64,000 nucleotides of DNA from Gemmatimonadota bacterium (GTDB lineage Bacteria > Gemmatimonadota > Gemmatimonadetes > Palauibacterales > Palauibacteraceae), in NCBI GenBank assembly GCA_039584815.1, contig JBDGXC010000007.1, positions 8,440 through 72,439 on the forward strand. Reading direction: 5' to 3'. The position numbers were made by a program, and so were the translations under genes. Position 1 is the first letter of the stretch. Each line of letters begins with the position of its first letter. Positions 9,833-30,464 of this stretch are shown one piece after another. The notes below the pieces were generated by a model. That model saw nothing but the letters and a program-made list of their open reading frames with translations, did not search any database and was not told where the DNA came from.

Positions 9833-9943
9833 TCGGGCGACGCCGACCGGAACCGTCCGGAGATTCCTCCGTTAACCGCTCGCAGACGACACGCAGATCC
9901 GGTTGATCCGAATCCACAGCAGCCAAGAGATCGAGAAGAGACC

Positions 9944-12900
9944 ATGGGCTGGATCAAAGACATCATCTCGCCGCAGACCCGGAAGTGGGAGGAGTTCTAC
10001 CGCAACCGGTTCCAGCACGATCGAATCGTGCGCAGCACGCACGGGGTGAACTGCACCGGCGGGTGCTCCTGGCAGATCCACGTCAAGGATGGGATCGTCA
10101 CCTGGGAGACGCAGCAACTGGACTACCCGCTTCTGGAGGATTCCCTGCCTCCATACGAGCCCCGGGGATGCCAGCGCGGAATCTCGTTCTCGTGGTACCT
10201 GTACAGCCCGCTCCGCATCAAGTATCCGCTCATCCGTGGCGCGCTCATCGACGCCTACAGAAAGAAGAAACGGGAGACCGGCGACCCGATGAAGGCGTGG
10301 AAGGCTCTGCAGGAAGACGAGGGAGCCCGCCGGGCTTACCAGGAGTCGCGCGGGAAGGGCGGATTCCGGAGAACGAGTTGGGACGAGGTCATGGAGATCA
10401 TGTCCGTCGCCAACATCCACACGGCAGAGAAGTTCGGTCCCGACCGGGTGATCGGGTTCAGCCCGATCCCGGCGATGTCGATGCTGAGCTATGCGGCCGG
10501 CGGCCGGTTCCTCCAACTGTTCGGCGGCGTCAACCTCAGCTTCTATGACTGGTACTGCGACCTGCCCACGGCCTTCCCGGAGATCTGGGGGGAGCAGACC
10601 GACGTGTGCGAGAGCGCCGACTGGTACAACGCGAAGATGATCGCCGACATGGGTGCCTGCCTCAACATGACGCGGACACCCGATTGCCACTTCTTCGCCG
10701 AGTCGAGACACAACGGCACCAAGGCGGTGGTGTTCTCACCCGACTTCAGCCAGGTGTGCAAGTACGCGGACCAGTGGGTGCCGCTCCACGCCGGCAGCGA
10801 CGGCGCGTTCTGGATGGCCACGACCCACGTGATCCTGAGGGAGTTCCATCACGAGAGGCAGACGCCGTACTTCATCGACTACGTGAAGAAGTACACCGAC
10901 AGCCCGTTCCTCGTGAAGCTCGAGAAGGACGGCGAGGCCTACAAACCGGGCCGGCTGCTTCGCGCGTCGGAGATTCCCGCGTACAGCGACATCTCGAACG
11001 GTGACTGGAAGTTCCTCAACATCGACGCCGCCACCGGTGAACTGGTGGTCCCGAAGGGGAGCTCGGGATCCCGATGGGACGAGAAACAGGGCAACTGGAA
11101 CATCAGGCAGGAGAGCGTGGTCGACGACCGGGCCTACGATCCGGTTCTGACCCTGCTCGGACGTACCGACGAGGTCGCACAGACGAAGTTCGTCGAGTTC
11201 GGCCTCGATCGGGAGACGCTGCGCGGCGTTCCGGTCATGCAGATCGAGACGACCGACGGGCCGGTCACGGTGACGACGGTGTACGACCTCACGATGGCCC
11301 AGTTCGGTGTGAGCCGGGGCCTGCCCGGCGACTACCCGGCCGACTACGGCGACAAGAACGCCGCATACACACCCGCCTGGCAGGAGCTGTTCACCGGGGT
11401 CGCGTCCGACACCGTGCTCCAGTTCGCCCGCGAGTGGGCAAGTACCGCCGAGGCCACGGGCGGCAAGTGCATGATCATCATCGGGGCAGGCATCAACCAC
11501 TGGTACCACGCCAACCTGATGTACCGGGCGGGCGCCATGGCCCTGATGCTCACCGGCTGCATCGGCAAGAACGGTGGGGGCCTGAACCACTACGTGGGGC
11601 AGGAGAAGCTTGCCCCGATGGACTCGTGGGGCGCGATCGCGTTCGGCAAGGACTGGCAGGGAGCCGTCCGGCTCCAGCAGACGCCCATCTGGCACTACAT
11701 CAACACGTGCCAGTACCGATACGACGGCCAATTCTCCAAGTACAACACGGTTCCGGAGAACGAGATCACCGGCCAGCACACGGCGGACCAGATCTTCAAG
11801 GCCGTCCGCATGGGCTGGATGCCGTTCTACCCGCAGTTCGACCAGAATTCACTCGACCTGTGCCGAGAGGCCGTCGAGGCGGGGACGACCGACGACGAGG
11901 GTATCAAGCGGTACGTCCTCGAGAAGCTCCGCTCGAAGGAGCTGCAATACTCGGTGAGCGATCCGGAGGCCGAGCACAACTTCCCGCGCGTGTGGTACAT
12001 CTGGCGCGGCAACGCGATCATGGGGAGCATGAAGGGGCACGAGTACGCCCTGAAGCACTACCTCGGCACCCACACCAACGCCATCGCCGAGGACTCCGAG
12101 GACCACACCCGCGAAGTCAAGTGGCACGACATCGCGCCGGTCGGGAAGATGGACCTCATCGTGGACCTCAACTTCCGCATGGACTCCTCGGCCCTGTACT
12201 CGGACATCGTGCTCCCGGCCGCCTCGTGGTACGAGAAGGCGGACCTGAACAGCACGGACATGCACTCGTTCATCCACCCGCTGTCGGCTGCCATCGCGCC
12301 GGTGTGGGAGTCGAAGACCGACTGGAACATCTTCCGCGACCTGGCGAAGGTCACGAGCGAAGCGGCGGAGAAGTACTTCCCCGAGCCGCAGAAGGATGTC
12401 GTCGCCACGCCCATCGCGCACGACTCGGCAGGCGAGATCTCGCAACCGGTGATCAGGGACTGGTACCGGGACGAGTGCGACGCCGTGCCGGGGAAGAGCA
12501 TGCACAATCTGGTCGTGGTGGACCGCGACTATACGAAGCTGTACGACAAGTTCATCAGCCTGGGCGACCGGATCCGCACCTCAGGCCTAGGAGCGCACGG
12601 AAACCACTATCAGTGCGAGGACGCGTACGACGAGATGGTCGCGTCCGCCCACTTCCCGGTCGAGCGCCGCAACGGGGACCTCCTGCCGTCGCTGAAGGAA
12701 GACGAGTGGGCCGCCAACGCGGTGCTGCATCTCTCGACGTTGACGAACGGCGCACTCAACGTGCGTGCTTATCGCGGCGCCGAGAAACGCACAGGCCTCG
12801 ATCTCGTGGACCTGGGCGCGGGGAGCGAGGACCTCCGGATCCGTTATGCCGACCTGCAGGCTCAGCCGCGACGGTACAACACGTCGCCGCTGTGGTCGGG

Positions 12901-13558
12901 CGTGATGAATAGAGGCAGGGCCTACGCCGCGTTTACGTACAACGTCGAGAAGCTGGTCCCGTGGCGTACGCTGACCGGCCGCCAGCACTTCTACCTCGAT
13001 CACGAGATGTACCTGGCGTACGGGGAGAACCTTCCGACCTACAAGCCGTCACCCAAGCCGGAGGCGTACGGCGACCTGAAGCAGACGCTGAAGGACGGGG
13101 ACGCGATGATCCTGAACTGTCTCACCCCGCACGGGAAGTGGCACATCCACTCCACGTACGGCGACAACCACCGCATGCTGACCCTTTCGAGGGGCTGCGA
13201 GCCGGTGTGGCTGAGCGAGGTGGACGCCGAGGAGCTCGGCATTCAGGACAACGACTGGTGCGAGGTCTACAACGACCACGGCGTGTACGCCGCGCGCGCC
13301 GCCGTGAGCGCCCGCATCCCGAAGGGCGTGTGCATCGTGTACCACGTGCCCGAGCGCACGATAGGCATTCCGAAGTCGCAGGTGCGCGGCGGCAAGCGGG
13401 CCGGGGGACACAACAGCTTCACCCGCATCCACCTCAAGCCCAATTTCCTGGCCGGCGGCTACGGCCAGTTCACGTACCACTTCAACTACTGGGGCCCCAT
13501 AGCCCCGAACCGGGACACGCACGTCGTCGTCAAGCGGATGGACAAGGTGGAGTTCTGA
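9944..13558 (+). CDS. narG: Respiratory nitrate reductase alpha subunit.
   Basis: 1204 aa. N-terminal FS0 ligand motif [18 protein letters not shown]. Molybdopterin oxidoreductase architecture, and the length is typical of NarG. Confidence 0.95.
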
Positions 13559-18359: not shown

Positions 18360-19835
18360 ATGAAAGAACAGCGCGGAGCCTGGCGCATACTCGCGCTCAA
18401 CACGATCGCGTTCACGGTCTGCTTCGCGGCCTGGATGCTGAACGGCGTGCTGGTGACATTCCTGGTGGAGAACGGGATCTTCGATTGGGACACGGCGCAG
18501 ATGGGCACCCTGATCGGTATCCCGGTTCTCACGGGCTCTATCATGCGACTGCCTCTCGGGATGCTCACCGACAGGTACGGGGGCCGCCCCGTGTACGCGG
18601 CGCTGATGCTCCTGTGCGCCGTGCCGATGTACCTGCTGAGTCAGGTTAATTCCTACGACGGCTACCTCCTGGCCAGCCTCGGCTTCGGGCTCACGGGCAC
18701 ATCGTTCGCCGTAGGCATCGCCTTTTCGTCGGTCTGGTTCAGCCGTGAGCACCAGGGGACGGCGCTCGGGATCTTCGGAGCCGGAAACGCCGGCGCCGCG
18801 CTGACGGTCATGCTCGCGCCGGGGATCCTGCGGTCTCTCACGAACGGCGGGCAGGATCTGGAGCGCTGGCGAATGCTTCCGCAGTACTACGCCGCCCTGC
18901 TCGTCGGCATGGCGATCGTGTTCTTCCTGTTCACGAAGAACAGGAAACCGGAGGTCGCCTCGCAGCGGACCGTGCTACAGATGCTCGGGCCGCTCCGGAA
19001 CATGCGTGTGTGGCGCTTCGGCCTGTACTACTTCCTCGTGTTCGGCGGCTTCGTGGCCCTGGCACAGTGGCTCGTGCCGTATTACGTGAACGTCTACTCG
19101 ATGACCATCGTCACTGCCGGCCTCCTGACGTCCATCTTCTCGCTTCCGTCCGGCGTGGTCCGCGCCCTTGGTGGATACCTGTCCGACAGGCTGGGGGCAC
19201 GCACCGTGATGTATTGGATCCTGGGGACGATCGGCGTGTGCTGTCTGCTGCTCTTCTTCCCGAAGATGGAGGTCGAGTCGCCGGGCAGCGGGGTCATGGC
19301 CAGGAGGAGCGGCACGGTCACGCGGGTCACGGACGCCGAAGTCCGGGTCGGCGACGACGTGTACACCCTGACCGCGAGGCCGGATGACGAGATCGACGAG
19401 TCACGCGCTCATGTCCTGCCGGTCATACGTTCCTGGCACGTGCCCGAAGTGACCCTCGGCCAGACCGTGGGAAAGCGGACCCTCCTGGCCAGCGGCGTCA
19501 CCAAGATCTTCTTCCAGGCCAACGTCTGGATCTTCACGATCCTCGTTTTCGTCATCGGGATCGCGATGGGAATCGGGAAGGCCGCGGTCTACAAGTACAT
19601 ACCCGAGTACTTCCCAACCGAGGTCGGCGTCGTGGGCGGAGCCGTGGGGGTCATCGGTGGTCTCGGGGGCTTCTTCTGCCCGATCATCTTCGGTTATCTG
19701 CTGAGAGGTATCGGACTCTGGACCACCACCTGGATCTTCTTCTTCCTGGTGACAATGACGTGTTTGATCTGGCTCCACATCACGGTGAAGCGGATCACGC
19801 GGCGGGAGACGGCCATCGAGGCTGTCCAGGCCTGA
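18360..19835 (+). CDS. narK: Nitrate/nitrite MFS transporter, copy 2, carrying a roughly 80-aa insertion between TM9 and TM10.
   Basis: 12-TM NarK-like protein, MKEQRGAWRILALNTIAF... An extra soluble segment, MEVESPGSGVMARRSGTVTRVTDAEVRVGDDVYTLTARPDDEIDESRAHVLPVIRSWHVPEVTLGQTVGKRTLLASGV, is absent from copy 1. Confidence 0.85.
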   Translation: MKEQRGAWRILALNTIAFTVCFAAWMLNGVLVTFLVENGIFDWDTAQMGTLIGIPVLTGSIMRLPLGMLTDRYGGRPVYAALMLLCAVPMYLLSQVNSYDGYLLASLGFGLTGTSFAVGIAFSSVWFSREHQGTALGIFGAGNAGAALTVMLAPGILRSLTNGGQDLERWRMLPQYYAALLVGMAIVFFLFTKNRKPEVASQRTVLQMLGPLRNMRVWRFGLYYFLVFGGFVALAQWLVPYYVNVYSMTIVTAGLLTSIFSLPSGVVRALGGYLSDRLGARTVMYWILGTIGVCCLLLFFPKMEVESPGSGVMARRSGTVTRVTDAEVRVGDDVYTLTARPDDEIDESRAHVLPVIRSWHVPEVTLGQTVGKRTLLASGVTKIFFQANVWIFTILVFVIGIAMGIGKAAVYKYIPEYFPTEVGVVGGAVGVIGGLGGFFCPIIFGYLLRGIGLWTTTWIFFFLVTMTCLIWLHITVKRITRRETAIEAVQA

Positions 19836-19857: not shown

Positions 19858-20727
19858 TCAGGTGGCGCGAGAGCGGCTCTCTACGGTGCGCGCCGCGAAC
19901 TTCTCGAACGAAGTGGGCTGACGACCGAGCAGTCGCCGGAGAGCTTCGGAGCTACCGGTGAAATCGTTGCGATCGTAGTAACGGAACATCCGGACCAGGG
20001 CATCGACCTGATACTCTCCGAGGCCGGTTGCCCCTGCCGTCCGCTCCCAGTCTTCCACCTCCTCGAACTCCGCACGAACGGGTCTTCCGAGCTGGCGCTC
20101 CAGAGAATCTGCGATCCCGGTGACCGCGATCGCCTCAGGTCCGCACAGCTCGTACGTGGCGCCCTCGTGTCCCGGCGACGTCAGCACGACTGCAGCCGCC
20201 TCCGCCACGTCCTCGAGATCGACGAGGCTCATCTCGACATCGGTGCCGTACGGGACCCCGAGCACACCACGCCCCACGATCGAGTCCCACTCGGCCAGCA
20301 CGTTCTGCATGTAGGCGCACGGCTGGAGGATCGTGAACTGGAGCCCGGAGTCGCGCAGCCGCCTCTCGACCCCGTGCTTCAGCCAGTGGTGGGGCATCGC
20401 CTCGACGGCCGGCAGGAGCACCGAGTGGTACACGAAGCGTTCGACCCCGGCGGAGCGGGCGGCGGCGATCGCGGATTCCCCGATCGCGACCTCATCCGGA
20501 TGCACGTTCGGGCAGATGTGATAGATCGTCCCGACGCCCGACGCGGCGACGCGGAGCGCCTCCGGGTCACGCATGTCGGCCGCCACGACCTCGCTCGCGC
20601 CAAGCCGTCGCATCGTCTCGAACGCTTCCTCGCGGAACACCAGCGCCCGAACCCGCTCTTCCCGGTCCGCCAGCGCCCGCACCGCTGCACATCCGGTCTT
20701 CCCGGCGGCGCCCGTCACGAGAATCAT
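19858..20727 (-). CDS. NmrA-like NAD(P)-binding protein (atypical SDR).
   Basis: N-terminal Rossmann motif MILVTGAAGKTGCAAVRAL. The ATG at 20727 was chosen over the longer track ORF because the upstream extension is low-complexity. Confidence 0.7.
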   Translation of the reverse strand: MILVTGAAGKTGCAAVRALADREERVRALVFREEAFETMRRLGASEVVAADMRDPEALRVAASGVGTIYHICPNVHPDEVAIGESAIAAARSAGVERFVYHSVLLPAVEAMPHHWLKHGVERRLRDSGLQFTILQPCAYMQNVLAEWDSIVGRGVLGVPYGTDVEMSLVDLEDVAEAAAVVLTSPGHEGATYELCGPEAIAVTGIADSLERQLGRPVRAEFEEVEDWERTAGATGLGEYQVDALVRMFRYYDRNDFTGSSEALRRLLGRQPTSFEKFAARTVESRSRAT

Positions 20728-20954
20728 CTGCAGCTCCACTCCCGACGCGCTCTCGTGAGCACAAGATCCTGGTTGCCCGTCATGATCGGGGTCGCCTGTC
20801 GTTGCGCCCCCGCGGCGGTCCGATTCAGCGTGAGAGAGAGCTTCCCGTTCCTCGCCCTGACTGCAAACATGGTATACATTTCCGGCGCCCTCCGCCGTGC
20901 ACGACATGCGCCGACCTTGATACCGAGAGCTTCGACCACGGGTCCGCGAGAGCC

Positions 20955-21332
20955 ATGACGATCAACCTGTACGCCGCCTGGATCGGGTTCCTGCTCGGCG
21001 CCCTCGCCGGGGCGATCACCGGCCTGTTCTTCCGCGACGAGCGGTGGCTCGGCGGATATGCCGGATGGCGCCGCCGGATGGTCCGCCTCGGTCACGTGGC
21101 CTTTTTCGGAATCGGCTTCCTGAACCTCGGGTTCGCCCTCACGGTGGGCGCGCTGCGAATCGAGACCGGAGTAGAGCTCCCGGGCTACCTGCTGCTCCTC
21201 GGCGCCGGCACAATGCCCGTGGTGTGCTACCTGGCCGCGTTCCGCGACGGCTTCCGTCACCTGTTCTTCGTTCCTGCCGGCTCCGTGATCGTCGCGATCG
21301 CGGCCTTCCTGTGGAGGCTGGCCCTCCGATGA
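20955..21332 (+). CDS. Small polytopic membrane protein (125 aa) of unknown function.
   Basis: MTINLYAAWIGFLLGALAGAITGLFF... with four predicted TM helices. Its stop overlaps the start of the downstream B12-rSAM gene (ATGA at 21329-21332). Confidence 0.55.
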   Translation: MTINLYAAWIGFLLGALAGAITGLFFRDERWLGGYAGWRRRMVRLGHVAFFGIGFLNLGFALTVGALRIETGVELPGYLLLLGAGTMPVVCYLAAFRDGFRHLFFVPAGSVIVAIAAFLWRLALR

Positions 21333-22657
21333 ACATCGGTCTGATCGCGGTGAGCGGGATTCGGGTGGTCGACCAGGAGCTTCTCCACCTCGGCCTCACG
21401 CTCCCCGGCTTCGTGGAGCGCAGCAAGACAATCGCGTCCCTTCCCAGCCTGGGGCTTCTGACGCTGGCGGCGCTCACGCCTCCCGAACACGAGATCCACT
21501 ACCTGGAGGTGCCGGATCCTGGAGCGCCGGGCCACATCCCCGACGGACTCGACCTGGTCGCCATCTCCTCCTACACCGCACAGATACCCGAAGCCTACGG
21601 GCTCGCGGACCGGTTCCGCGAGCGGGGCGTGCCCGTCGTCATGGGGGGACCGCACGTCAGCGCTCTGCCGGAGGAGGCCGCGGACCACTGCGACGCCGTG
21701 GTGATCGGCGAGGGCGAGCCCGTCTGGAACCGGCTCCTGTCGGACTGCGCCGACCAGCGGCTCGAGGACGTGTACGACGCCCGTCCCCACGAGTACGATC
21801 TGGTGGAAGCTCCCGTCCCGGCGTTCGAGTTGCTGGACATCTCGCGGTACAACCGGCTGACAGTGCAGGCGAGCCGCGGCTGCCCGCACCGATGCGAGTT
21901 CTGCGCCAGCTCGGTGCTCCTGACCGACCGGTACAAGCAGAAGCCCGTCGCGAGCGTTGTCCGGGAGATCGATCGGATCCTGGAGATCTGGGACCAGCCC
22001 TTCATCGAATTCGCAGACGACAACGCGCTCGTGAACCGGGCGTACTGGAAGGAGCTTCTCGTCGCGCTCGAGCCCAGAGGGGTGAGCTGGTTCGCCGAGA
22101 CCGACCTGTCCGTGGCCCGGGACGACGAGCTTCTGGAGCTGATGCGCCGGAGCGGGTGCGCCCAGGTACTGATCGGCCTCGAGAGCCCCGTTCCGGAGGG
22201 CCTCGCGGGCCTCGAGCTGCGGAACGACTGGAAGTACCGGAAGTTCCCCGGCTGCCGGGACGCGATCCGGACGATCCAGTCGCACGGGATCACCGTGAAC
22301 GGCTGCTTTGTCCTCGGCCTGGACGGACATACGCCGGGGATCTTCGACCACGTGTTCGAGTTCGTGCGGGACGCGGGTCTCTACGAAGTCCAGGTGACGA
22401 TCCTTACTCCGTTTCCGGGCACGCCGCTGTACGAGCGACTCGAGCGGGAGGACAGGCTGCTCGAGCCGCGGGCCTGGGACAGATGCACCCTGTTCGACGT
22501 GAACTACCGTCCCGCCGGCATGTGCCCGGCGGACCTGGCCGGCGGGTTCAGGGACCTGGTCGTGCGGCTGTACAGCGACGAGTTCACCCGCCGGCGACGC
22601 AGCAACTTCCGGAAGTCCCTCCGGGAGGACCTCCGAGAGAGGAGAAGACCGACATGA
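21329..22657 (+). CDS. B12-binding radical SAM protein (class B rSAM).
   Basis: The N-terminal cobalamin-binding-like domain (LIAVSGIRV..VAISSYTAQIPEAYGLADRFRERGVPVVMGGPHVS) is followed by the rSAM cluster motif CPHRCEFC. Translationally coupled to both flanking membrane-protein genes. Confidence 0.8.
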   Translation: MNIGLIAVSGIRVVDQELLHLGLTLPGFVERSKTIASLPSLGLLTLAALTPPEHEIHYLEVPDPGAPGHIPDGLDLVAISSYTAQIPEAYGLADRFRERGVPVVMGGPHVSALPEEAADHCDAVVIGEGEPVWNRLLSDCADQRLEDVYDARPHEYDLVEAPVPAFELLDISRYNRLTVQASRGCPHRCEFCASSVLLTDRYKQKPVASVVREIDRILEIWDQPFIEFADDNALVNRAYWKELLVALEPRGVSWFAETDLSVARDDELLELMRRSGCAQVLIGLESPVPEGLAGLELRNDWKYRKFPGCRDAIRTIQSHGITVNGCFVLGLDGHTPGIFDHVFEFVRDAGLYEVQVTILTPFPGTPLYERLEREDRLLEPRAWDRCTLFDVNYRPAGMCPADLAGGFRDLVVRLYSDEFTRRRRSNFRKSLREDLRERRRPT

Positions 22658-23055
22658 GGGAATCGCCCGCGACCTCCGTGCTGTTCTACGTGGCGGCCGT
22701 GTACGACGCGGTGCTGGGTGTGGCGTTCCTGACCGCCGCCCCGGCCCTGTTCGAGTGGGTCGGCGTGACCCCGCCGAACCACTTCGGATACGTGCACTTT
22801 CCGGCCGCGCTGTTGATCGTGTTCGCGCTGATGTTCGTGGCCATCGCCCGGCAACCGGCTGTGAACCGCTCCCTGATCCCGTACGGAATTCTGCTCAAGG
22901 TCTCCTACTGTGCGGTCGTGTTCTACCACTGGCTGACGGCCGGCATTCCGTATATCTGGAAGCCGTTCGCGATCGCCGACCTGGCGTTCCTGGTCCTGTT
23001 CGCGTGGGCGTACCTGGACCTCGGGAAGACCTCGAGGGAAGTCTCCGCGGTCTGA
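22654..23055 (+). CDS. Small polytopic membrane protein (133 aa) of unknown function.
   Basis: MRESPATSVLFYVAAVYDAVLGVAFLTAAP... with four TM helices. Its ATG overlaps the rSAM stop (ATGA at 22654). Confidence 0.55.
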   Translation: MRESPATSVLFYVAAVYDAVLGVAFLTAAPALFEWVGVTPPNHFGYVHFPAALLIVFALMFVAIARQPAVNRSLIPYGILLKVSYCAVVFYHWLTAGIPYIWKPFAIADLAFLVLFAWAYLDLGKTSREVSAV

Positions 23056-23135: not shown

Positions 23136-23870
23136 CTAGCCGAGGAGCGCTCCGGCGATGGAGCCGACGACGGCCACGGCCGCCAGAGCGCCCGACGACC
23201 ACAGCAGGACGGCGCGCCGTTGGCCGAGCTGACGCGCGCGCTTCTCCCCGCCCCCCACGGCGAACAGGACAAGCGGGAACAGGAAGCCTCGCATGACGGC
23301 GACCCCGCACCCGGTAGCCAGCAGGGCGAGCAGGGCCGTTGCCGCGACGAATCCGGCCGCGTGAGGCGATCCCGTCACGCCTCCGAGGAGCACGAACAGG
23401 GATCCCGCCACCAGCGCCATCGCGGCGACCAGTAGCGCGGCTCCGAAAGCGAACCGGGGACCATCGAGGGTCGCTATTCGTCCGTACCACGGGGTGACGG
23501 AGCCGATCCACTCGTCCAGCTCCCGGGACAGCCTCATCACCTCCCGCTCGTCTCCGGAGACATGATATCGGACCGTGGCGCTGCGGTTCCGGCGCAGACT
23601 CACGATCGCGACGCGGGCCGAGGGAGCGTCGGCGAACGCGAATGGCGGTGGGGTGCTCTCCACCGTCATGGCCTCGATGAGCCGCCCGGAATCGTTCTTC
23701 AGGTCCGCGACGTCCGTCACCCGTTCGGGCGAGACGGTCGAGCCGTCGCTCAAGTCGATCGAGAGTCCGGTCAGCAGCTCGTCGCCCCCGAGGATCTGGA
23801 CGAGTCTCTCGACGTCCCACGGGGCCACATGCAGCCCCAGGCTGGCGTCCCTGGTCTTGATGACATTCAT
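23136..23870 (-). CDS. Hypothetical membrane protein.
   Basis: The C-terminal third is strongly hydrophobic (FAFGAALLVAAMALVAGSLFVLLGG...). The ATG at 23870 (MNVIKTRD) is preferred over the GTG-extended track ORF. No recognisable motif. Confidence 0.45.
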   Translation of the reverse strand: MNVIKTRDASLGLHVAPWDVERLVQILGGDELLTGLSIDLSDGSTVSPERVTDVADLKNDSGRLIEAMTVESTPPPFAFADAPSARVAIVSLRRNRSATVRYHVSGDEREVMRLSRELDEWIGSVTPWYGRIATLDGPRFAFGAALLVAAMALVAGSLFVLLGGVTGSPHAAGFVAATALLALLATGCGVAVMRGFLFPLVLFAVGGGEKRARQLGQRRAVLLWSSGALAAVAVVGSIAGALLG

Positions 23871-24157
23871 TCTTCCAGCCGGCCTCCCGCCGTCACGCGT
23901 CACAGGGGGATCTGAGGACATCCGGGACCGGATCCGCGCCCCGGCTCCGACGTCCCACGGTCTCGCTCCTCACCGAGCAATACCCGGACCAGGATTCGGG
24001 CGCACCCCGCCATCTGGAGTTCCTCCGACCCCGATCCGCCGCCCGGCACGCGGGCTGCTCAGGCATCCCGACTCGCACGAACCGATGATCTCCACCTATG
24101 TTCTCCGGTCTTTCGAGACCGAGGAAGGTGACGAACGGAACCCGTACGGGGGGGCGG

Positions 24158-25925: not shown

Positions 25926-28900
25926 TCACGGCATGGGGCAGCCGCTCACCTCGTAGGCGACCTCGATCCCGTTGGCGTCCTGCGCGAGGTTCTCGTGGCG
26001 CGCCGACCGCTCCTCATCGAGTCCTGACTCGAGCGGCGACACTCCGTTCACCGCGTAGGTCAGCCACAGGCGTCCCACCTCGGAGAAGGCCGCCCGCAGA
26101 TCCTCGCAATCGATCAGCTCTGCCTCGAAGGACGCGGCCGCGGCACGGAACGCTGTCATCGCGGCGATCGTGGAATCGGCAAGCTGGTCCAACGTCCTGA
26201 GGCGTGGATCGGCGCTCGCCGGTACGGCGCCGGGATCCTCCACGGCCGGAACTTCCGCACCGACTGCCGGCGGGAGCACGACTCTGCCCTGGCCGGCCCG
26301 GGCCGCTCCCGGAGTCTCCGCTCCGTCCGATTCGCCGTCCGTGTCCGCCCCCCAGCTGCCTCTGTCGAACACGGTATGACCCGGGTTCAGCTCGGTCCAC
26401 CGCATCACTCTCTCGACCCCGAACGCGCCGGCAGCCAGGATGGCGATGGCCGCTGCCACATTCCCCGCGCCACGGAGTCGCCTTGAGCGCCTCTCGCGCC
26501 TCTCGCGGCGCTCTTCCTCGCGCCGCGCCTCGCGCTTCTCGCGCTTCGCCTCGGCGACCTCCGCCCTCACGCGGGCCTCCGCCTCTGCCTTGCGACGCGC
26601 ATCGGCGTCCGCCACTTCCTGACGCGCGAACTTCACGGCCGCTTCTCGAGCCGCCTCTTCCGCCTGGACACGGGCCGCTTCGGCGGTCGCCCGTCGTCCC
26701 TCCTCCTCCCGTCGCCGCGCGATCTCGCGGGATTCGGCCCGACGGAGCGCCTCCAGCTCGGTGGCCCTCTCCTTTACGGCTTGCTCGAGGCGCGTACGCT
26801 CCATGCGCAGCCTGGACACTTCCTCTCGCGCCAACTCTGCCACCTGGCGGGCCTTGGCCGCCACGCGGGCCGCCTCTTCCTCGGCCGCCTGGCGAGCCTT
26901 CTCGAGCTCGCTCACCCGGGCTGCCGCCGCTTCCTCGGCCTCCTTGCGGCGCTCGGACTCGAGGCGCGCGGTCCGCCAGGCATCCTCGGCTTCCGTCGCC
27001 AGCACCGCGGCACGTTCTTCGGCAACCGCTTTGGCTTCTTCCAGCTCCGTCACTTCACGCGCGATCCGTTCCTCGGTCGCTCGCAGCTCAGCCTCTTCCT
27101 CGACCGTCTTCTGGGCTGCCTCGGCCTGAATCGCTTCTTGTGCGGCGCGCTTTTCGGACGCCTGGCGCATCGCGTCCTCGGCTGCCTGGCGGGCTCCCTC
27201 AAGCTGCAAGGAGCGCCGGGCAGTCTCTTCCTCGGCTGCCTGCCGGAGCTCGGCCTCCCGCGCCGCAGCTTCGACCGCGGCGCGCGCCTCTTCGGCCCTG
27301 CGCTCGGCCTCCAGGCGCGATTCCAAAAGGGATGCTTCGACCTCCTTGACCCGGGCAGCGGCCTCGACCTCTGCGGCACGTCGGGCGTCCTCCTCCTCCC
27401 GCCGCCGGGCGGCCTCGCGTCGAGCCGCCTCCAGCGCCGCCTCCGCCCGCGCGTCCCGTATCGTCGCTTCCTGAGCAGCCGATTTGCGCTCGGCGTTCAG
27501 GGTGCCGGCGATGCGCTCGGCCTCGGCCTCGGCCGCCCGGCGGGCCGCCGCTTCGGCTTCGCGGCGCGCCGCTTCACGGGCTGCCGTGCGACGAGCCTCC
27601 TCGACCTCGGTGGCCCTGCGCGCCGCCTCTTCCTCGGCTGCCTTGCGCGCCGCCTCCAGCTCAGCCGCCTTCTGGATCGCCACCGTCTCGGCGTCTCGGC
27701 GCAGAGCCTCCTCGGATCGGTACTTGTCCGCGTCGGACTGGGCGATCCGGCGAGCCTCTTCCGCTTCACGAGCGCGCTGCTCCGATTCCTCGGCCGTCCG
27801 TCGAGAGAGCTCCACCTCCTCCGCCCGCCGCGCGGCTTCCTCTTCGGCGGCTACGCGCGCTTCCTCGGCGGCCCGGCGGGTTTCCTCGAGCTCCAGGGAT
27901 CTGCGCCTGGCTTCGTCTTCCGCCTCGCGCCGGGCGGTTTCCGCTTCGGCGGCCCATCGGGCGGCTTCTTCCTCCGCTACCTTGCGCGCCGTCTCCATTT
28001 CAGCGACCCGGCGCACGGCGTCGGCGATGGCCGCCTCGTGAGCCTCCGCCTCGGCCTGGCGTCGCTCGGCCTCGCGCTCGGCTGCCTCGCGAGCGGCCTC
28101 CGCCTCGGCGGCCCGGCGGGCCGCCTCTTCCTCGGCGGCCTTGATCGCTGCCGTGGCCTCGGCTGCCTTGCGCTCGGCCTCGGCCTCGGCGGCCCGGCGG
28201 GCGGCTTCGGCGGCCTGGACCGTGGCCTGGAGCTCCGCGGCCTGCCGGGCCGCTTCCTCTTCCGCGGCCTGGCGGGCGGCTTCCAGCTCAGCGGTCCGAC
28301 GAGCGGCCTCCTCCTCGGCCGTCTGGCGGGCGGCCTCCAGCTCGGCGGCTCGACGGGCGGCTTCCGCTTCCGCCTCACGCCGCGCCTCGTCGGCGGCTCG
28401 CAGGGTCTCCTGGAGCTCGGCGGCCTGGCGGGCGGCCTCTTCCTCCGCCACCTGGCGGGCGGCCTGGAGCTCGGCGGCTCGCCGAGCGGCCTCCTCCTCG
28501 GCGGCGCGACGCGCCTCGTCGGCGGCTCGCAGGGTCTCCTGGAGCTCGGCGGCCTGCCGGGCGGCCTCTTCCTCCGCCGCCTGGCGGGCGGCCTGGAGCT
28601 CGGCGGCCTGCCGGACGGTCTCTTCCTCCGCCGCCTGGCGGGCGGCCTGGAGCTCGGCGGCCTGCCGGGCGGCCTCCTCGTCGGCCGCTCGCAGGGTCTC
28701 CTGGAGCTCGGCGGCTCGTCGAGCCGCCTCCTCCTCGGCCGCGCGTCGGGCCTCATCAGCCACCCGCAGCGTCTCCTGCAGCTCGGTCGCCTGCCGCTCG
28801 GCTTCCGCTCCCGCGGCCTGCCGTGCAGCTTCGAGCTCTGCCGCGCGCCGGGCGGCCTCCTCTTCGGCAATCTCGCGGGCCTGGTTCGCGGCACGCAGGG

Positions 28901-30464
28901 TGGCCTCCAGCTCCGAGGCATGGCGCTCGGCCTCCTGCTCGACGGCCTGGCGGGCGGCCTCGAGCTCCGCCGTACGCCGCGCCGCATCTTCCTCGGCGGC
29001 CCGGCGGGCGTGCTCGGCCGCCTCCAGTGTGGTCTCGAGCTCGAGGGCGCGCCGCTCGGCTTCCTCCTCCGCCAGCCTGCGGGCCTGCTGCACTTCTTCT
29101 ACCCGCCGTGCCGCGTCCTGCTCGGCCGCGATTCTCGCCAGCTCCTCCGATCGTCGCCGTTCGGCTTCCTGCTCCGCCGCCTGGCGCGCGGATTCTGCCT
29201 CGGCCGCCTGGCGCGCCGCCTCCTGCTCCGCCGCTTCCCGGGCTTCCTCCTGCTCCGCCACCCGGCGTGCGGCGTCCGCTTCCGTGGCGCGCAGGGCTGC
29301 TTCGAGCTCGGCGACTCGCCCTTCGGCTTCGACCGCCGCCTCGCGCAACGACTTCAGCTCGCTGACGCGCCGATCGGCCTCATGCTCCGCCGCGCGTGCG
29401 GCAGCTTCAGCCTGGCGAGCCAGGTCCTCCGCCTGTCGCCGCTCTTCGGTGGCGCGGGCCTCACTCTCGGGCGGTGCCTCCGATGTGCGCTGGGCCGCTT
29501 CCTGCGCCGCGGTTCGCGCGGCTTCGAGCTCGGCGGCCTTTTGCTCGGCTTCCCGTTCGGCCTCGAGAGCCGCCTCTTCCGCTGCTCTCCGCTGCTGATC
29601 CAGATCCGCGGCGGTCCGGGCAGCGGCGGCCAGCAGCGAGCGCCGCGCGATCTCCTGGGCGAGCGGACTGGAGAGATCCGAACCGCGGCCCGGCCGCCTC
29701 GTGATCCAGGATGGACGCGCGCTCACGCCGGTGCCGTTGCCTTCCGACCGACTCGGGAGCGCCTCCAGGTTCTCGCGGACGATCTCGGCGTCCGTTTGCA
29801 CGTTCGTCCAGTCGAGCAGAGTGCGGCGCTCGCCCTCCGACAGCGACTCCGTCGCCACGACTTCGTGGAAGGGCAGGGGCTTCCTGCCGATGTTGCCTCC
29901 CGATGTCTGGCGGAAGAAACCGCCCCGGGGGGACTCGCCTTCCGGGGCGACCAGCACCGCACTGTGCCACACCTCGCCGAAGTACTTCCTGTGCGTGGCG
30001 ATCTCCGCGTCCGTCAGCTCGATTCCTCCGTCGCGGTGACGCAGGTACCAGCCGACCAGATTGCCGGAAAGCCGGCCGGCTTGCTCGCGCAGGGCGTCCC
30101 ACGCCTCCGGGGGAATCATGTCTCCGGGATCGCTGATCAAGGGGATCCGGGATCGGCATACACCGCTGATCAGGACGTACGGCCGGCCGTCCTCGATGTC
30201 CTCGCACAGGTCACCCGACAGCAGACCGAACGGACGTTCGTTCCTGGAGGCTTTCCGCAGGTGATTCAGGAGGTCCGCGAGGGCGCGCTGCGTGATGAAG
30301 ACGTCGTAGGCTCCCCCGACCGGGTGTTCTTCCGATTCGGAGGGTGTCCACAGGATGCTCCGCAGCAGGGGGCGCGGCACGGATATGTGAAAACGCTCCG
30401 GCGTGCTCCCGGAGTTCACACCTTCATCAGGCTTCGAGCGCCCGTCGACTATCGCATCCGTCAT
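25926..30464 (-). CDS. Giant (1512 aa) membrane-anchored coiled-coil protein. N-terminal degenerate MPN/JAB-like domain, roughly 960-aa repetitive E/A/R-rich rod, one TM helix, and a roughly 230-aa C-terminal domain.
   Basis: Residues about 60-175 match the MPN fold pattern (VFITQRALADLL..FGLLSG...NLVGWYLRHRDGG..TDAEIATHRKYF..VWHSAVLVAP), but the JAMM HxH site is RHR and the Ser is replaced by Thr. The rod is built from units like AEEEAARRAAELEAARQAAE. The TM helix is NVAAAIAILAAGAFGV. Confidence 0.75.
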   Translation of the reverse strand: MTDAIVDGRSKPDEGVNSGSTPERFHISVPRPLLRSILWTPSESEEHPVGGAYDVFITQRALADLLNHLRKASRNERPFGLLSGDLCEDIEDGRPYVLISGVCRSRIPLISDPGDMIPPEAWDALREQAGRLSGNLVGWYLRHRDGGIELTDAEIATHRKYFGEVWHSAVLVAPEGESPRGGFFRQTSGGNIGRKPLPFHEVVATESLSEGERRTLLDWTNVQTDAEIVRENLEALPSRSEGNGTGVSARPSWITRRPGRGSDLSSPLAQEIARRSLLAAAARTAADLDQQRRAAEEAALEAEREAEQKAAELEAARTAAQEAAQRTSEAPPESEARATEERRQAEDLARQAEAAARAAEHEADRRVSELKSLREAAVEAEGRVAELEAALRATEADAARRVAEQEEAREAAEQEAARQAAEAESARQAAEQEAERRRSEELARIAAEQDAARRVEEVQQARRLAEEEAERRALELETTLEAAEHARRAAEEDAARRTAELEAARQAVEQEAERHASELEATLRAANQAREIAEEEAARRAAELEAARQAAGAEAERQATELQETLRVADEARRAAEEEAARRAAELQETLRAADEEAARQAAELQAARQAAEEETVRQAAELQAARQAAEEEAARQAAELQETLRAADEARRAAEEEAARRAAELQAARQVAEEEAARQAAELQETLRAADEARREAEAEAARRAAELEAARQTAEEEAARRTAELEAARQAAEEEAARQAAELQATVQAAEAARRAAEAEAERKAAEATAAIKAAEEEAARRAAEAEAAREAAEREAERRQAEAEAHEAAIADAVRRVAEMETARKVAEEEAARWAAEAETARREAEDEARRRSLELEETRRAAEEARVAAEEEAARRAEEVELSRRTAEESEQRAREAEEARRIAQSDADKYRSEEALRRDAETVAIQKAAELEAARKAAEEEAARRATEVEEARRTAAREAARREAEAAARRAAEAEAERIAGTLNAERKSAAQEATIRDARAEAALEAARREAARRREEEDARRAAEVEAAARVKEVEASLLESRLEAERRAEEARAAVEAAAREAELRQAAEEETARRSLQLEGARQAAEDAMRQASEKRAAQEAIQAEAAQKTVEEEAELRATEERIAREVTELEEAKAVAEERAAVLATEAEDAWRTARLESERRKEAEEAAAARVSELEKARQAAEEEAARVAAKARQVAELAREEVSRLRMERTRLEQAVKERATELEALRRAESREIARRREEEGRRATAEAARVQAEEAAREAAVKFARQEVADADARRKAEAEARVRAEVAEAKREKREARREEERRERRERRSRRLRGAGNVAAAIAILAAGAFGVERVMRWTELNPGHTVFDRGSWGADTDGESDGAETPGAARAGQGRVVLPPAVGAEVPAVEDPGAVPASADPRLRTLDQLADSTIAAMTAFRAAAASFEAELIDCEDLRAAFSEVGRLWLTYAVNGVSPLESGLDEERSARHENLAQDANGIEVAYEVSGCPMP
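26700..29620. repeat. Long imperfect tandem DNA repeat (units of about 54-63 bp with variants) encoding the coiled-coil rod of the giant protein.
   Basis: Near-identical blocks such as ctggagctcggcggcctgccgggcggcctcttcctccgccgcctggcgggcggcctggagctcggcggc recur many times between about 28400 and 28700. Degenerate copies are spread over roughly 2.9 kb. Confidence 0.8.

What the first reader, a model, noticed from the sequence alone, without database searches (positions are those of the whole stretch)
20955..23055. B12-binding radical SAM enzyme sandwiched between two small membrane proteins
Both junctions are ATGA overlaps (21329-21332 and 22654-22657), so the three genes form a tightly coupled unit. 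The enzyme has an N-terminal cobalamin-binding-type domain and a CPHRCEFC cluster, which makes it a class B rSAM (methyltransferase or C-C bond forming). Known membrane-associated class B rSAMs act on lipids, for example hopanoid C-2 methylase and tetraether/GDGT ring synthases. A dedicated pair of 4-TM proteins suggests a membrane lipid or membrane-bound cofactor substrate. The unit sits immediately downstream of the nitrate respiration locus.
Basis: partly seen in the sequence, partly recalled or inferred. Interest (0 to 1): 0.65.

Follow-up and report, generated by a model that had tools for sequence, protein, structure and literature searches.

The report
Radical SAM enzyme with two membrane partners
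A B12-type radical SAM enzyme and two small four-helix membrane proteins form a tightly coupled three-gene unit that recurs, almost unchanged, in at least 20 bacterial phyla; nobody has named or studied it, and it most likely modifies something embedded in the cell membrane.

Summary
Genes A (20955-21332, 125 aa), B (21329-22657, 442 aa) and C (22654-23055, 133 aa) overlap by ATGA at both junctions. B has a B12-binding domain, a radical SAM core (CPHRCEFC) and DUF4070. A and C are each confident four-helix membrane bundles.

The triad is not a local accident. In 80 loci from at least 20 phyla, fetched through a B motif only, A lies directly upstream in 77 and C directly downstream in about 58. 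The 4-nt overlap is kept in 60/67 (A-B) and 36/54 (B-C) junctions. No other neighbour is conserved, so the adjacent nitrate respiration locus is coincidental.

B is 57-79% identical across phyla, yet it falls far below the cut-off of every curated equivalog (BchE, HpnJ, HpnR, ladderane, MgmA, AprD4). A and C have no Pfam, NCBIfam or PDB relative.

Best reading (about 0.45): a membrane-bound complex. A docks soluble B at the inner face of the membrane. A and C present a hydrophobic membrane substrate. B carries out radical C-H chemistry on it, which could be methylation, cyclisation, desaturation or C-C coupling.

The lipid substrate is inferred, not shown.

The parts
20728..20954 (+). Upstream intergenic/promoter region of the triad, divergent from the NmrA-like gene
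   Evidence: The JGI gene calls put the NmrA-like gene end at window 20727 and a 51-aa ORF at 20724-20879 on the minus strand. No sigma-70 consensus was found, no Rfam element such as a cobalamin riboswitch, and no FNR-like box.
20955..21332 (+). Gene A: 125-aa integral membrane protein with 4 TM helices. Predicted topology is N-terminus outside, with loops 1 and 3 cytoplasmic
   Evidence: ORF and ATG read directly. The 125-aa gene call is independent. AF2 gives pLDDT 88 with helices 2-25, 38-67, 74-96 and 98-124. Positive-inside counts across 78 homologues: loop 1 has 4.0 K+R and loop 3 has 2.4, against 0.06 and 0.5 on the other side. No Pfam, NCBIfam, PADLOC or PDB relative.
21045..21095 (+). 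Gene A, cytoplasmic loop 1 and start of TM2: invariant W31-x-G-G-Y35-x2-W38-x-R40-R41-x2-R44-L-x-H47. Proposed docking or head-group site
   Evidence: The columns are invariant in 34 and in 78 homologues. It is the only low-confidence stretch of the monomer model (pLDDT 58-64). The docking role is inferred.
21313..21317 (+). GGAGG ribosome-binding site for B, inside the end of gene A
   Evidence: Read from the sequence; 11 nt before ATG 21329.
21329..21332 (+). ATGA overlap: B start codon and A stop codon
   Evidence: The same 4-nt overlap occurs in 60 of 67 loci from other phyla.
21329..22657 (+). Gene B: 442-aa soluble B12-binding-domain radical SAM enzyme of a distinct, unnamed subfamily
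   Evidence: Pfam domains. No NCBIfam equivalog reaches its cut-off. Homologues are 57-79% identical in at least 20 phyla. No TM segment: the maximum 19-residue hydropathy is 1.25.
21353..21436 (+). Family-specific insertion in the B12-binding domain of B (residues 9-36, SGIRVxDxELLxLGLTLPGFVERSKTIA), nearly invariant
   Evidence: Invariant columns. The insertion is absent (a gap of 16-20 residues) from the 29-34% identical paralogues. A role as the partner-docking element is inferred.
21548..21721 (+). B12-binding (Rossmann-type) domain match, residues 74-131
   Evidence: PF02310, 45.8 bits against cut-off 32.1. Residues 73-139 align to the TokK and CysS cobalamin domains.
21881..21904 (+). 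CPHRCEFC: the CxxxCxxC motif that binds the radical SAM [4Fe-4S] cluster (C185, C189, C192)
   Evidence: Read from the sequence. Invariant in all aligned homologues and paralogues.
22421..22627 (+). DUF4070 C-terminal domain of B (residues 365-433). It holds the family-specific invariant W383-x2-C386-T-L-F-D390-x-N392
   Evidence: PF13282, 29.8 bits against cut-off 22. Invariant columns. C326 and C386 are not conserved in the paralogues.
22565..22654 (+). Polybasic C-terminal tail of B (last 30 residues)
   Evidence: Across 78 homologues the tail has a mean net charge of +4.9, against -16.2 for the rest of the protein. Membrane-surface binding is inferred.
22640..22644 (+). AGGAG ribosome-binding site for C, inside the end of gene B
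   Evidence: Read from the sequence; 9 nt before ATG 22654.
22654..22657 (+). ATGA overlap: C start codon and B stop codon
   Evidence: The same 4-nt overlap occurs in 36 of 54 loci.
22654..23055 (+). Gene C: 133-aa integral membrane protein with 4 TM helices. Predicted topology is N- and C-termini inside, opposite to A. Invariant intramembrane D18, K82 and D109, and outward-facing P40/41-N42-H43-x-G45-Y46 and W102-K103-P104-F105
   Evidence: ORF and independent gene call. AF2 gives pLDDT 87 with helices 5-35, 45-66, 72-96 and 102-132. Positive-inside counts. Invariant columns. No Pfam, NCBIfam or PDB relative.

Best explanation
A, B and C are the subunits of one membrane-bound radical SAM machine that is inherited, and laterally transferred, as a self-contained operon.

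Shown:
- The three genes are translationally coupled and co-conserved in at least 20 phyla.
- B is a soluble, acidic protein with a B12-binding domain, a CxxxCxxC radical SAM core, DUF4070, a family-specific N-terminal insertion and a polybasic C-terminal tail.
- A and C are unrelated 4-TM proteins of opposite predicted topology, each with invariant polar residues.

Inferred:
- A, through its invariant Trp/Arg/His-rich cytoplasmic loop, docks B at the inner face of the cytoplasmic membrane. The invariant acidic residues D15, E17 and E30 of B's insertion are candidate partners for R40, R41 and R44 of A.
- A, usually together with C, forms the intramembrane site that holds a hydrophobic substrate already present in these cells: an acyl or alkyl chain of a bulk lipid, a polyprenyl lipid or a quinone.
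- B reductively cleaves SAM. The 5'-deoxyadenosyl radical abstracts a hydrogen from an unactivated carbon of that substrate.
- The reaction is completed either by methyl transfer from methylcobalamin, the commonest outcome in this class, or by cyclisation, desaturation or C-C coupling.

The nitrate respiration genes next door play no part.
For: - Coupling and co-conservation. ATGA overlaps with internal Shine-Dalgarno sites. Among 80 loci chosen through a B motif only, A is upstream in 77 and C downstream in about 58. All-against-all clustering of every ORF finds A in 78/81, B in 81/81 and C in 66/81 sources, and the next cluster in only 8. The 4-nt overlap holds in 60/67 and 36/54 junctions, the pattern expected for stoichiometric subunits.
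- The link survives rearrangement. Divergent C-like genes lie upstream of A (L007, L008), upstream of B (L065) or on the opposite strand (L066). A 399-aa protein with A-like repeats replaces A in L078.
- A and C are dedicated partners. Neither has a Pfam family, and all relatives are 'hypothetical'. The whole A family is only 516 clusters among 1.84 billion representatives.
- B needs help to reach the membrane. It has no TM segment, but it has a conserved +4.9 tail on a -16 body.
- The insertion in B is unique to this family. The most conserved part of A is a cytoplasmic loop that stays disordered in the monomer model.
- Precedent. All characterised B12-rSAMs that sit at membranes act on lipids. 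The archaeal ones studied so far (Cgm/Saci_1785 and Ted) are predicted to be peripheral membrane proteins (PMC13459092; bioRxiv 10.1101/2025.10.20.683597).
- No orthology to any soluble-substrate family.
Against: - No substrate, product or complex has been observed. The lipid link rests only on the partners being membrane proteins.
- No lipid, quinone or isoprenoid biosynthesis gene is a conserved neighbour.
- C is missing from about a fifth of the loci, and A from two or three with upstream flank.
- Cobalamin binding cannot be read from sequence. The position aligned to the hydrophobic lower-axial Trp76 of TokK is Ala84-Gln85, in a weak alignment. This gives no support for radical methylation.
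- Known lipid B12-rSAMs work without integral-membrane partners, so the analogy is incomplete.
Pairwise-distance correlations between the three proteins are only moderate: 0.64 for A-B, 0.47 for B-C, 0.25 for A-C, with no control.
Confidence: 0.45

Rival explanations
1. B is a protein-modifying enzyme whose substrate is A or C. It would, for example, C-methylate an invariant Arg, His or Gln of the cytoplasmic loop of A, in the way Mmp10 and MgmA/QCMT modify methyl-coenzyme M reductase. The modified membrane protein would then carry out the real function, such as a channel, sensor or carrier.
For: - B12-rSAMs that methylate protein side chains exist. QCMT (9ccb) is the second-best solved relative of B (E 6e-8; identity of 9CCB from PMC12931638). 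The NCBIfam MgmA model gives 56.7 bits.
- A carries invariant R40, R41, R44, H47 and R101 on the cytoplasmic side, within reach of a soluble enzyme.
- The enzyme is always encoded next to these proteins.
Against: - Similarity to QCMT is no better than to BchE, HpnJ or PhpK, and lies far below the cut-off (56.7 against 360).
- Conserved translational coupling by 4-nt overlaps suggests equimolar subunits rather than a catalytic enzyme and its substrate.
- C is dispensable in about 20% of loci, and A is replaced by a repeat protein in L078.
- No independent function is visible for A or C.
Confidence: 0.15
2. A and C are transport components serving B, not catalytic partners. They would import its cofactor (a cobamide) or substrate, or export its soluble product. 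B would then act on a soluble small molecule.
For: - C has three invariant charged residues inside the membrane (D18, K82, D109) and conserved outward-facing loops, as small carriers do.
- A and C have opposite topologies, reminiscent of antiparallel small-transporter pairs.
- A has invariant His, Met and Cys residues (H47, M87, C91) that could touch a corrinoid.
Against: - No sequence or structural match to SMR, ECF S-component or any other transporter family (Pfam E<0.1: none; Foldseek best E 0.5-0.9; PDB profile search: none).
- A and C are not homologous to each other (hhalign probability 0.4%).
- No cobalamin riboswitch.
- No further biosynthetic genes accompany B, so a soluble-product pathway would consist of one enzyme.
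Confidence: 0.1
3. The triad is an accessory of the neighbouring nitrate respiration locus, for example in maturation or adaptation of the anaerobic respiratory chain.
For: - Physical proximity: narGHJI plus two NarK-type genes end at 19835, 1.1 kb before gene A.
- Radical SAM enzymes are oxygen-sensitive, so co-use under anoxia is plausible.
Against: - None of the nar genes or other window neighbours recurs beside the triad in the 80 other loci. Contexts include toxin-antitoxin islands, glycoside hydrolases and sulfatases.
- An opposite-strand gene separates the two units.
- An FNR-like box precedes narG but not gene A.
Confidence: 0.03

Closest known systems
Lipid-modifying B12-binding radical SAM enzymes: hopanoid methylases HpnP/HpnR, HpnJ, archaeal GDGT ring synthases GrsA/B, GMGT/GDGT methylases Gmm/Cgm, tetraether desaturase Ted
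   Same: They share the domain plan of an N-terminal B12-binding Rossmann domain plus a CxxxCxxC radical SAM barrel; B adds a C-terminal DUF4070, which the hopanoid literature also mentions. They act at the membrane on unactivated carbons of hydrophobic chains. The enzyme itself is soluble or peripheral.
   Different: B scores 5- to 15-fold below the curated cut-offs (HpnJ 80.6/577.6, HpnR 60.8/650). The archaeal ones studied so far are predicted to bind the membrane through their own C-terminal part and are not reported with integral-membrane partners (bioRxiv 10.1101/2025.10.20.683597). B has two dedicated 4-TM partners, a unique N-terminal insertion and a polybasic tail.
BchE (anaerobic Mg-protoporphyrin IX monomethyl ester cyclase), the best NCBIfam hit
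   Same: B12-binding radical SAM enzyme with an oxygen-independent reaction on a hydrophobic, membrane-associated substrate. It is the highest-scoring curated model (89.2 bits).
   Different: The score is 89 against a cut-off of 481, and only the radical SAM core aligns (residues 165-376). There are no photosynthesis genes nearby, and carriers are mostly non-phototrophic phyla.
Protein-modifying B12-rSAMs: MgmA/QCMT (PDB 9ccb) and Mmp10
   Same: Same enzyme class. QCMT is among the closest solved structures. These enzymes are often encoded next to their protein substrate.
   Different: 56.7 bits against a cut-off of 360. Those enzymes are restricted to methanogens and ANME and act on a soluble enzyme complex.
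Paired small 4-TM membrane proteins such as ArnE/ArnF or paired SMR transporters
   Same: Two small 4-TM proteins are encoded in one operon, here with opposite predicted topology. In the Arn case the pair handles a polyprenyl-phosphate-linked lipid (own knowledge).
   Different: No sequence or fold match. A and C are not homologous to each other. They flank the enzyme gene instead of lying side by side.
AprD4 (PDB 6fd2), the closest solved structure by sequence
   Same: Best PDB match to the B profile (E 2.8e-11, residues 156-370), with a B12-binding-like N-terminal domain.
   Different: AprD4 is a diol dehydratase of aminoglycoside biosynthesis acting on a soluble substrate. Its NCBIfam score is 50.5 against 500, and only the core barrel aligns.

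Membership tests
Radical SAM superfamily | CxxxCxxC motif binding the [4Fe-4S] cluster within a partial TIM barrel; Pfam PF04055 above its gathering score | tested here: met
   C185-x3-C189-x2-C192 (nt 21881-21904). PF04055 scores 52.9 bits against cut-off 29.5. The motif is invariant in the family and its paralogues.
Class B (B12-binding domain) radical SAM enzymes | N-terminal Rossmann-type cobalamin-binding domain preceding the radical SAM core | tested here: met
   PF02310 scores 45.8 bits against cut-off 32.1, residues 74-131. The canonical GGPH...GEGE signature is invariant. The domain aligns to those of TokK and CysS.
Class B (B12-binding domain) radical SAM enzymes | The protein actually binds cobalamin and uses it in catalysis | not testable with these tools
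   No sequence motif defines binding, because cobalamin is bound base-off without a protein ligand (PMC12931638). AprD4, the closest solved relative, is reported not to use cobalamin (own knowledge).
Radical methylating class B enzymes | Hydrophobic residue under the lower face of cobalamin (Trp76 in TokK, Leu322 in Mmp10) | tested here: inconclusive
   In a weak alignment (domain E 0.09), TokK W76 falls on invariant A84, which is followed by invariant Q85. No model of B was available.
BchE (TIGR02026) | Full-length match above the equivalog cut-off | tested here: not met
   89.2 bits against 481.35; only residues 165-376 match.
HpnJ (TIGR03471) and HpnR (TIGR04367) hopanoid enzymes | Full-length match above the equivalog cut-off | tested here: not met
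   80.6 against 577.6, and 60.8 against 650. No hopanoid genes are nearby.
Ladderane-type lipid B12-rSAM (TIGR04072) | Match above the equivalog cut-off | tested here: not met
   61.1 bits against 360.
MgmA/QCMT (TIGR04014) and AprD4 (NF033070) | Match above the equivalog cut-off | tested here: not met
   56.7 against 360, and 50.5 against 500.
   The PhpK family model TIGR04479 gives 70.7 bits against 600, and Sden_1168 gives 66.9 against 575. Nothing for Fom3 appears at E<=0.1.
HpnP, GrsA/B, Gmm/Cgm, Ted, Tes, Mss | Orthology to the experimentally characterised protein | not tested
Indirect evidence only: the top 120 homologues of B bear bacterial names apart from one MAG labelled 'archaeon', and none of these enzymes is described with 4-TM partner genes (PMC13459092).
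SMR / paired small multidrug-resistance-type membrane proteins (for A and C) | Match to the family profile; the two partners are homologous to each other | tested here: not met
   No Pfam family at E<0.1 for C; only sub-threshold noise for A. A against C: BLASTP E 2.6 and hhalign probability 0.4%. Foldseek matches to EmrE and Gdx have E 4-6.
Known anti-phage defence systems (PADLOC) | Match of the components to defence-system models | tested here: not met
   A and C give nothing. B gives only a weak 23-bit domain-level match to candidate model PDC-M51A. No relative was found on viral contigs.

The most novel reading that the evidence does not exclude
A-B-C is the first radical SAM holoenzyme with dedicated integral-membrane subunits. 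It would install a so far unassigned, oxygen-independent modification on bulk membrane lipids in many mostly uncultured phyla: mid-chain methylation, ring formation, desaturation or chain cross-linking. The carriers include Planctomycetota, Verrucomicrobiota, Acidobacteriota, Gemmatimonadota, NC10, Brocadiaceae and Desulfobulbaceae. It could therefore be the missing gene marker for an orphan sedimentary lipid biomarker, such as extra methyl branches of branched tetraethers or mid-chain methyl alkyl chains.
Probability: 0.2. Interest if true: 0.85.

Novelty: new variant of a known kind. Interest (0 to 1): 0.62.

Why it matters
Radical SAM enzymes with a B12-binding domain make several of the lipid modifications that geochemists use as molecular fossils. 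New activities such as desaturation are still being found among close homologues. This work identifies a very strongly conserved enzyme (57-79% identity across phyla) present in at least 583 species-level genomes. It always travels with one or two private membrane proteins, none of the three has a name, and no curated model covers them.

If the three proteins form a membrane complex, that would be a new way of giving a soluble radical enzyme access to a substrate buried in the bilayer. The self-contained operon is only 2.1 kb, which makes the function directly testable by heterologous expression. The result also removes a tempting but wrong link to nitrate respiration.

Tried and rejected
**Assignment of B**
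- NCBIfam equivalogs: 22 weak hits, all far below cut-off.
- PADLOC: nothing meaningful.

**Identity of A and C**
- No hit in Pfam or NCBIfam, no hit in a PDB profile search, and no Foldseek match to PDB below E 0.5.
- A and C as diverged paralogues: rejected.

**Conserved neighbours**
- Clustering of 3,352 ORFs from 81 sources found none beyond the triad. A sigma-54 activator occurs in 8 loci and a GNAT-aminotransferase fusion in 3.

**Fusion proteins**
- P0443 is a frameshift artefact. P0381 is A fused to a TPR domain, a single case.

**Regulatory elements**
- No Rfam element, promoter consensus or terminator was found in the region between and flanking the three genes; three weak terminator-like hits inside coding sequence (21006, 21246, 21955) are within the shuffle expectation. 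There is no FNR box before gene A.

**Mobile-element carriage**
- No close relative on plasmids (best 35% identity) or on viral contigs.
- The contexts of the 30-35% identical paralogues are heterogeneous and uninformative.
- My first impression that paralogues generally carry hydrophobic C-terminal tails held only for the Aureibacter protein.

**Literature**
- Seven searches found no description of this triad.
- The 'lipocone' 4-helix superfamily paper does not mention radical SAM partners.

**Mirror-tree correlation**
- Only moderate and without a control, so it is not used as evidence.

**Resource choice**
Full report
**1. What is in the sequence**

Three ORFs on the + strand are joined by ATGA overlaps exactly as reported. 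A is 20955-21332 (125 aa), B is 21329-22657 (442 aa) and C is 22654-23055 (133 aa). GGAGG at 21313-21317 and AGGAG at 22640-22644 give internal ribosome-binding sites. The public JGI contig that carries an identical B protein has the same three gene calls.

B matches Pfam B12-binding, Radical_SAM and DUF4070, all above their gathering scores. It carries C185-x3-C189-x2-C192 within CPHRCEFC. A and C match no Pfam or NCBIfam family. AlphaFold2 with alignments of 32-34 homologues gives confident four-helix transmembrane bundles for both (pLDDT 87-88, pTM 0.81-0.82).

**2. Is the unit real?**

A scan of one genome per GTDB species, using two peptide motifs of B only, returned at least 583 loci encoding a relative; the best 80 were kept. 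They come from:
- Gemmatimonadota, Planctomycetota (including Brocadiaceae), Verrucomicrobiota, Kiritimatiellota/Lentisphaerota and Acidobacteriota;
- Ignavibacteria, Rhodothermales, Calditrichota, Zixibacteria, NC10 and Desulfobulbaceae;
- Omnitrophota, WOR-3, Cloacimonadota, Hydrogenedentota, Krumholzibacteria, Stahlbacteria, Anaerolineales and an alphaproteobacterium.

Nearly all are metagenome-assembled genomes.

tblastn finds A directly upstream of B in 77 of 80 loci and C directly downstream in about 58. An all-against-all clustering of 3,352 ORFs from these loci and the window finds only three widely shared clusters: B in 81/81, A in 78/81 and C in 66/81. The remaining clusters are shadow ORFs, and the next real gene family, a sigma-54 activator, occurs in 8. 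The 4-nt start/stop overlap is kept in 60 of 67 A-B junctions and 36 of 54 B-C junctions.

The association survives rearrangement:
- Divergent C-like genes sit upstream of A in L007 and L008, upstream of B in L065 and on the opposite strand in L066.
- In L078 a 399-aa membrane protein with two or three A-like repeats replaces A.

The triad, with A-B as its core, is therefore a self-contained and widely distributed operon. Its identity to the window protein does not track phylum: an Akkermansiaceae bin is 79% identical, above the 71-78% seen within Gemmatimonadota. That points to lateral transfer, or in some cases to binning errors.

**3. The surroundings**

Upstream lie narG (9944-13558), narH, a narJ-like gene, narI and two NarK-type MFS genes ending at 19835. 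An NmrA-like gene follows on the opposite strand. Downstream lie an unassigned 244/261-aa gene on the opposite strand and an alanine:sodium symporter.

None of these recurs beside the triad elsewhere. In two megabase-scale contigs the triad sits among toxin-antitoxin genes or among glycoside hydrolases. An FNR-like box lies 28 nt before narG (9903-9916), but nothing comparable precedes gene A. The window holds no Rfam element, so there is no cobalamin riboswitch. The nar adjacency is coincidental.

**4. What B is and is not**

B is remarkably conserved: 57-79% identity across phyla, with 158 invariant positions among 16 diverse sequences. Yet every curated NCBIfam model is far below its cut-off:

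| Model | Score (bits) | Cut-off |
|---|---|---|
| BchE | 89 | 481 |
| HpnJ | 81 | 578 |
| PhpK family | 71 | 600 |
| Ladderane type | 61 | 360 |
| HpnR | 61 | 650 |
| MgmA | 57 | 360 |
| AprD4 | 50 | 500 |

The closest solved structures by sequence are AprD4 (E 2.8e-11, core barrel only) and QCMT/9ccb (E 6e-8).

Alignment with 29-34% identical paralogues shows three family-specific features. The paralogues used were a second rSAM next to B in L065, and proteins from Synechocystis, Aureibacter and Citrobacter plasmids.
- A nearly invariant insertion of 16-20 residues, SGIRVxDxELLxLGLTLPGFVERSKTIA (residues 9-36), in the B12-binding domain.
- A 4-residue insertion around residue 300.
- Invariant C326 and C386, which the paralogues lack.

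B has no transmembrane segment. Its last 30 residues average +4.9 net charge on a protein that is otherwise -16.

Whether B binds cobalamin cannot be decided from sequence (PMC12931638). In a weak alignment the residue aligned to the lower-axial Trp76 of TokK is Ala84-Gln85. The chemistry therefore stays open. Homologous B12-rSAM lipid enzymes methylate, cyclise or desaturate (PMC13459092; bioRxiv 10.1101/2025.10.20.683597).

**5. What A and C are**

Both families consist only of 'hypothetical proteins' without Pfam domains: 1,188 relatives of A and 915 of C at 90% clustering. A profile of A finds only 516 clusters among 1.84 billion representatives. Neither has a significant match to any solved structure by sequence or fold. 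They are not related to each other.

Positive-inside counts over 60-78 homologues give opposite topologies. A has its N-terminus outside and loops 1 and 3 inside. C has both termini and loop 2 inside.

- A has an invariant glycine zipper, G15xxxG19xxxG23, in helix 1.
- A also has an invariant cytoplasmic motif, W31-x-GGY-x2-W-x-RR-x2-RL-x-H47. This is the only poorly ordered part of the monomer model.
- C has invariant D18, K82 and D109 inside the membrane.
- C also has conserved outward-facing loops, PPNHxGY (40-46) and WKPF (102-105).

These are features of functional sites, not of inert anchors.

**6. Most likely mechanism**

I read the module as a three-subunit, membrane-bound radical SAM enzyme. 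The shown and inferred steps are separated in the Best explanation section. In short, A docks acidic B at the inner membrane face. A, usually with C, holds a hydrophobic substrate that these cells already make. B performs hydrogen abstraction followed by methyl transfer or another radical outcome.

The absence of any other conserved pathway gene argues for a one-step modification of a common membrane molecule. I put this at about 0.45. The specific chemistry, and the choice among acyl chains, polyprenyl lipids and quinones, remains open.

Rivals:
- B modifies A or C itself (0.15).
- A and C are transport components for a cofactor, substrate or product (0.10).
- A link to nitrate respiration (0.03).

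**7. Comparison with what is known**

The module works like the lipid-modifying B12-rSAMs: HpnP/R, HpnJ, GrsA/B, Gmm/Cgm and Ted. It is not a member of any family that could be tested. It also differs in having private integral-membrane partners; the archaeal members studied so far are predicted to be peripheral membrane proteins acting alone (bioRxiv 10.1101/2025.10.20.683597).

A 2026 review of lipid-modifying radical SAM enzymes lists Tes, Mss, Gms, GrsA/B, Gmm, Cds, HpnH/J/P/R, Jaw5 and the ladderane candidates, and nothing resembling this triad (PMC13459092). Seven full-text searches found no description of it.

**8. Verdict**

I rate this a new variant of a known kind: a new, unnamed subfamily of class-B-type radical SAM enzymes with two new membrane-protein families as obligatory companions. 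Interest is 0.62. The module is widespread, extremely conserved, entirely unannotated and cheap to test, but its function is still inferred.

Noticed in passing
window 25926-30464 (both strands): A 1512-aa minus-strand ORF encodes an extremely repetitive Ala/Glu/Arg-rich, coiled-coil-like protein (AAEEEAARRAAELEAARQ-type repeats) with no Pfam match. The JGI gene caller instead called a 1247-aa ORF on the plus strand over the same DNA. GC rises to 0.72-0.76 and AT skew falls to -0.35 to -0.44 here. Which strand is coding is unresolved.
   Followed up: partly
window 9903-9916: An FNR/Crp-like inverted repeat, TTGATCCGAATCCA (1 mismatch to TTGAT-N4-ATCAA), lies 28 nt before the narG start codon. 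It is a plausible anaerobic activation site for the nar operon. Ten matches with up to 2 mismatches were found in the window, against 5.1 expected.
   Followed up: no
window 18360-19835: The second NarK-type MFS protein (491 aa) appears to carry a soluble insertion of roughly 90 residues between its two six-helix halves (around residues 305-395 of the translation). Pfam MFS_1 covers only residues 16-303 as its best stretch.
   Followed up: no
window 23136-23921 (minus strand): A 261-aa ORF (244 aa in the JGI call), convergent on gene C, has no Pfam or PADLOC match and a hydrophobic C-terminal half. It is not conserved next to the triad elsewhere.
   Followed up: partly
L065 4427-7475 (Omnitrophota MAG): A variant layout: a C-like gene, then B, then a second B12-binding radical SAM paralogue (442 aa, 33% identical to B) that lacks the family-specific insertion. 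No A gene was found within the locus.
   Followed up: partly
L078 3520-6580 (Pirellulaceae MAG): A and C are absent. B is followed by a 399-aa membrane protein containing two or three A-like repeats (HMM E 4.6e-10). B is preceded by a 145-aa protein that looked to me like an SRPBCC/START-type lipid-binding fold; I did not scan it.
   Followed up: partly
L056 1732-3651 and L073 3633-5606 (Planctomycetota MAGs): A fusion of a GNAT acyltransferase domain with a class I/II aminotransferase (639-657 aa) overlaps the start of gene A by 3-12 nt. It occurs in three planctomycete loci and may be a lineage-specific addition to the operon.
   Followed up: partly
L084 (Citrobacter portucalensis plasmid NZ_CP134684, 51417-62583): A cluster of five radical SAM genes (distant paralogues of B, 34% identity) lies together with a GH3-family enzyme, an N-acetyltransferase and a PAP2 phosphatase on an IncF plasmid. 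It looks like an uncharacterised lipid or natural-product pathway.
   Followed up: no
P0381: One homologue of A carries a roughly 345-residue TPR-like extension after helix 4. If A's C-terminus is outside, as predicted, this domain would be periplasmic.
   Followed up: no
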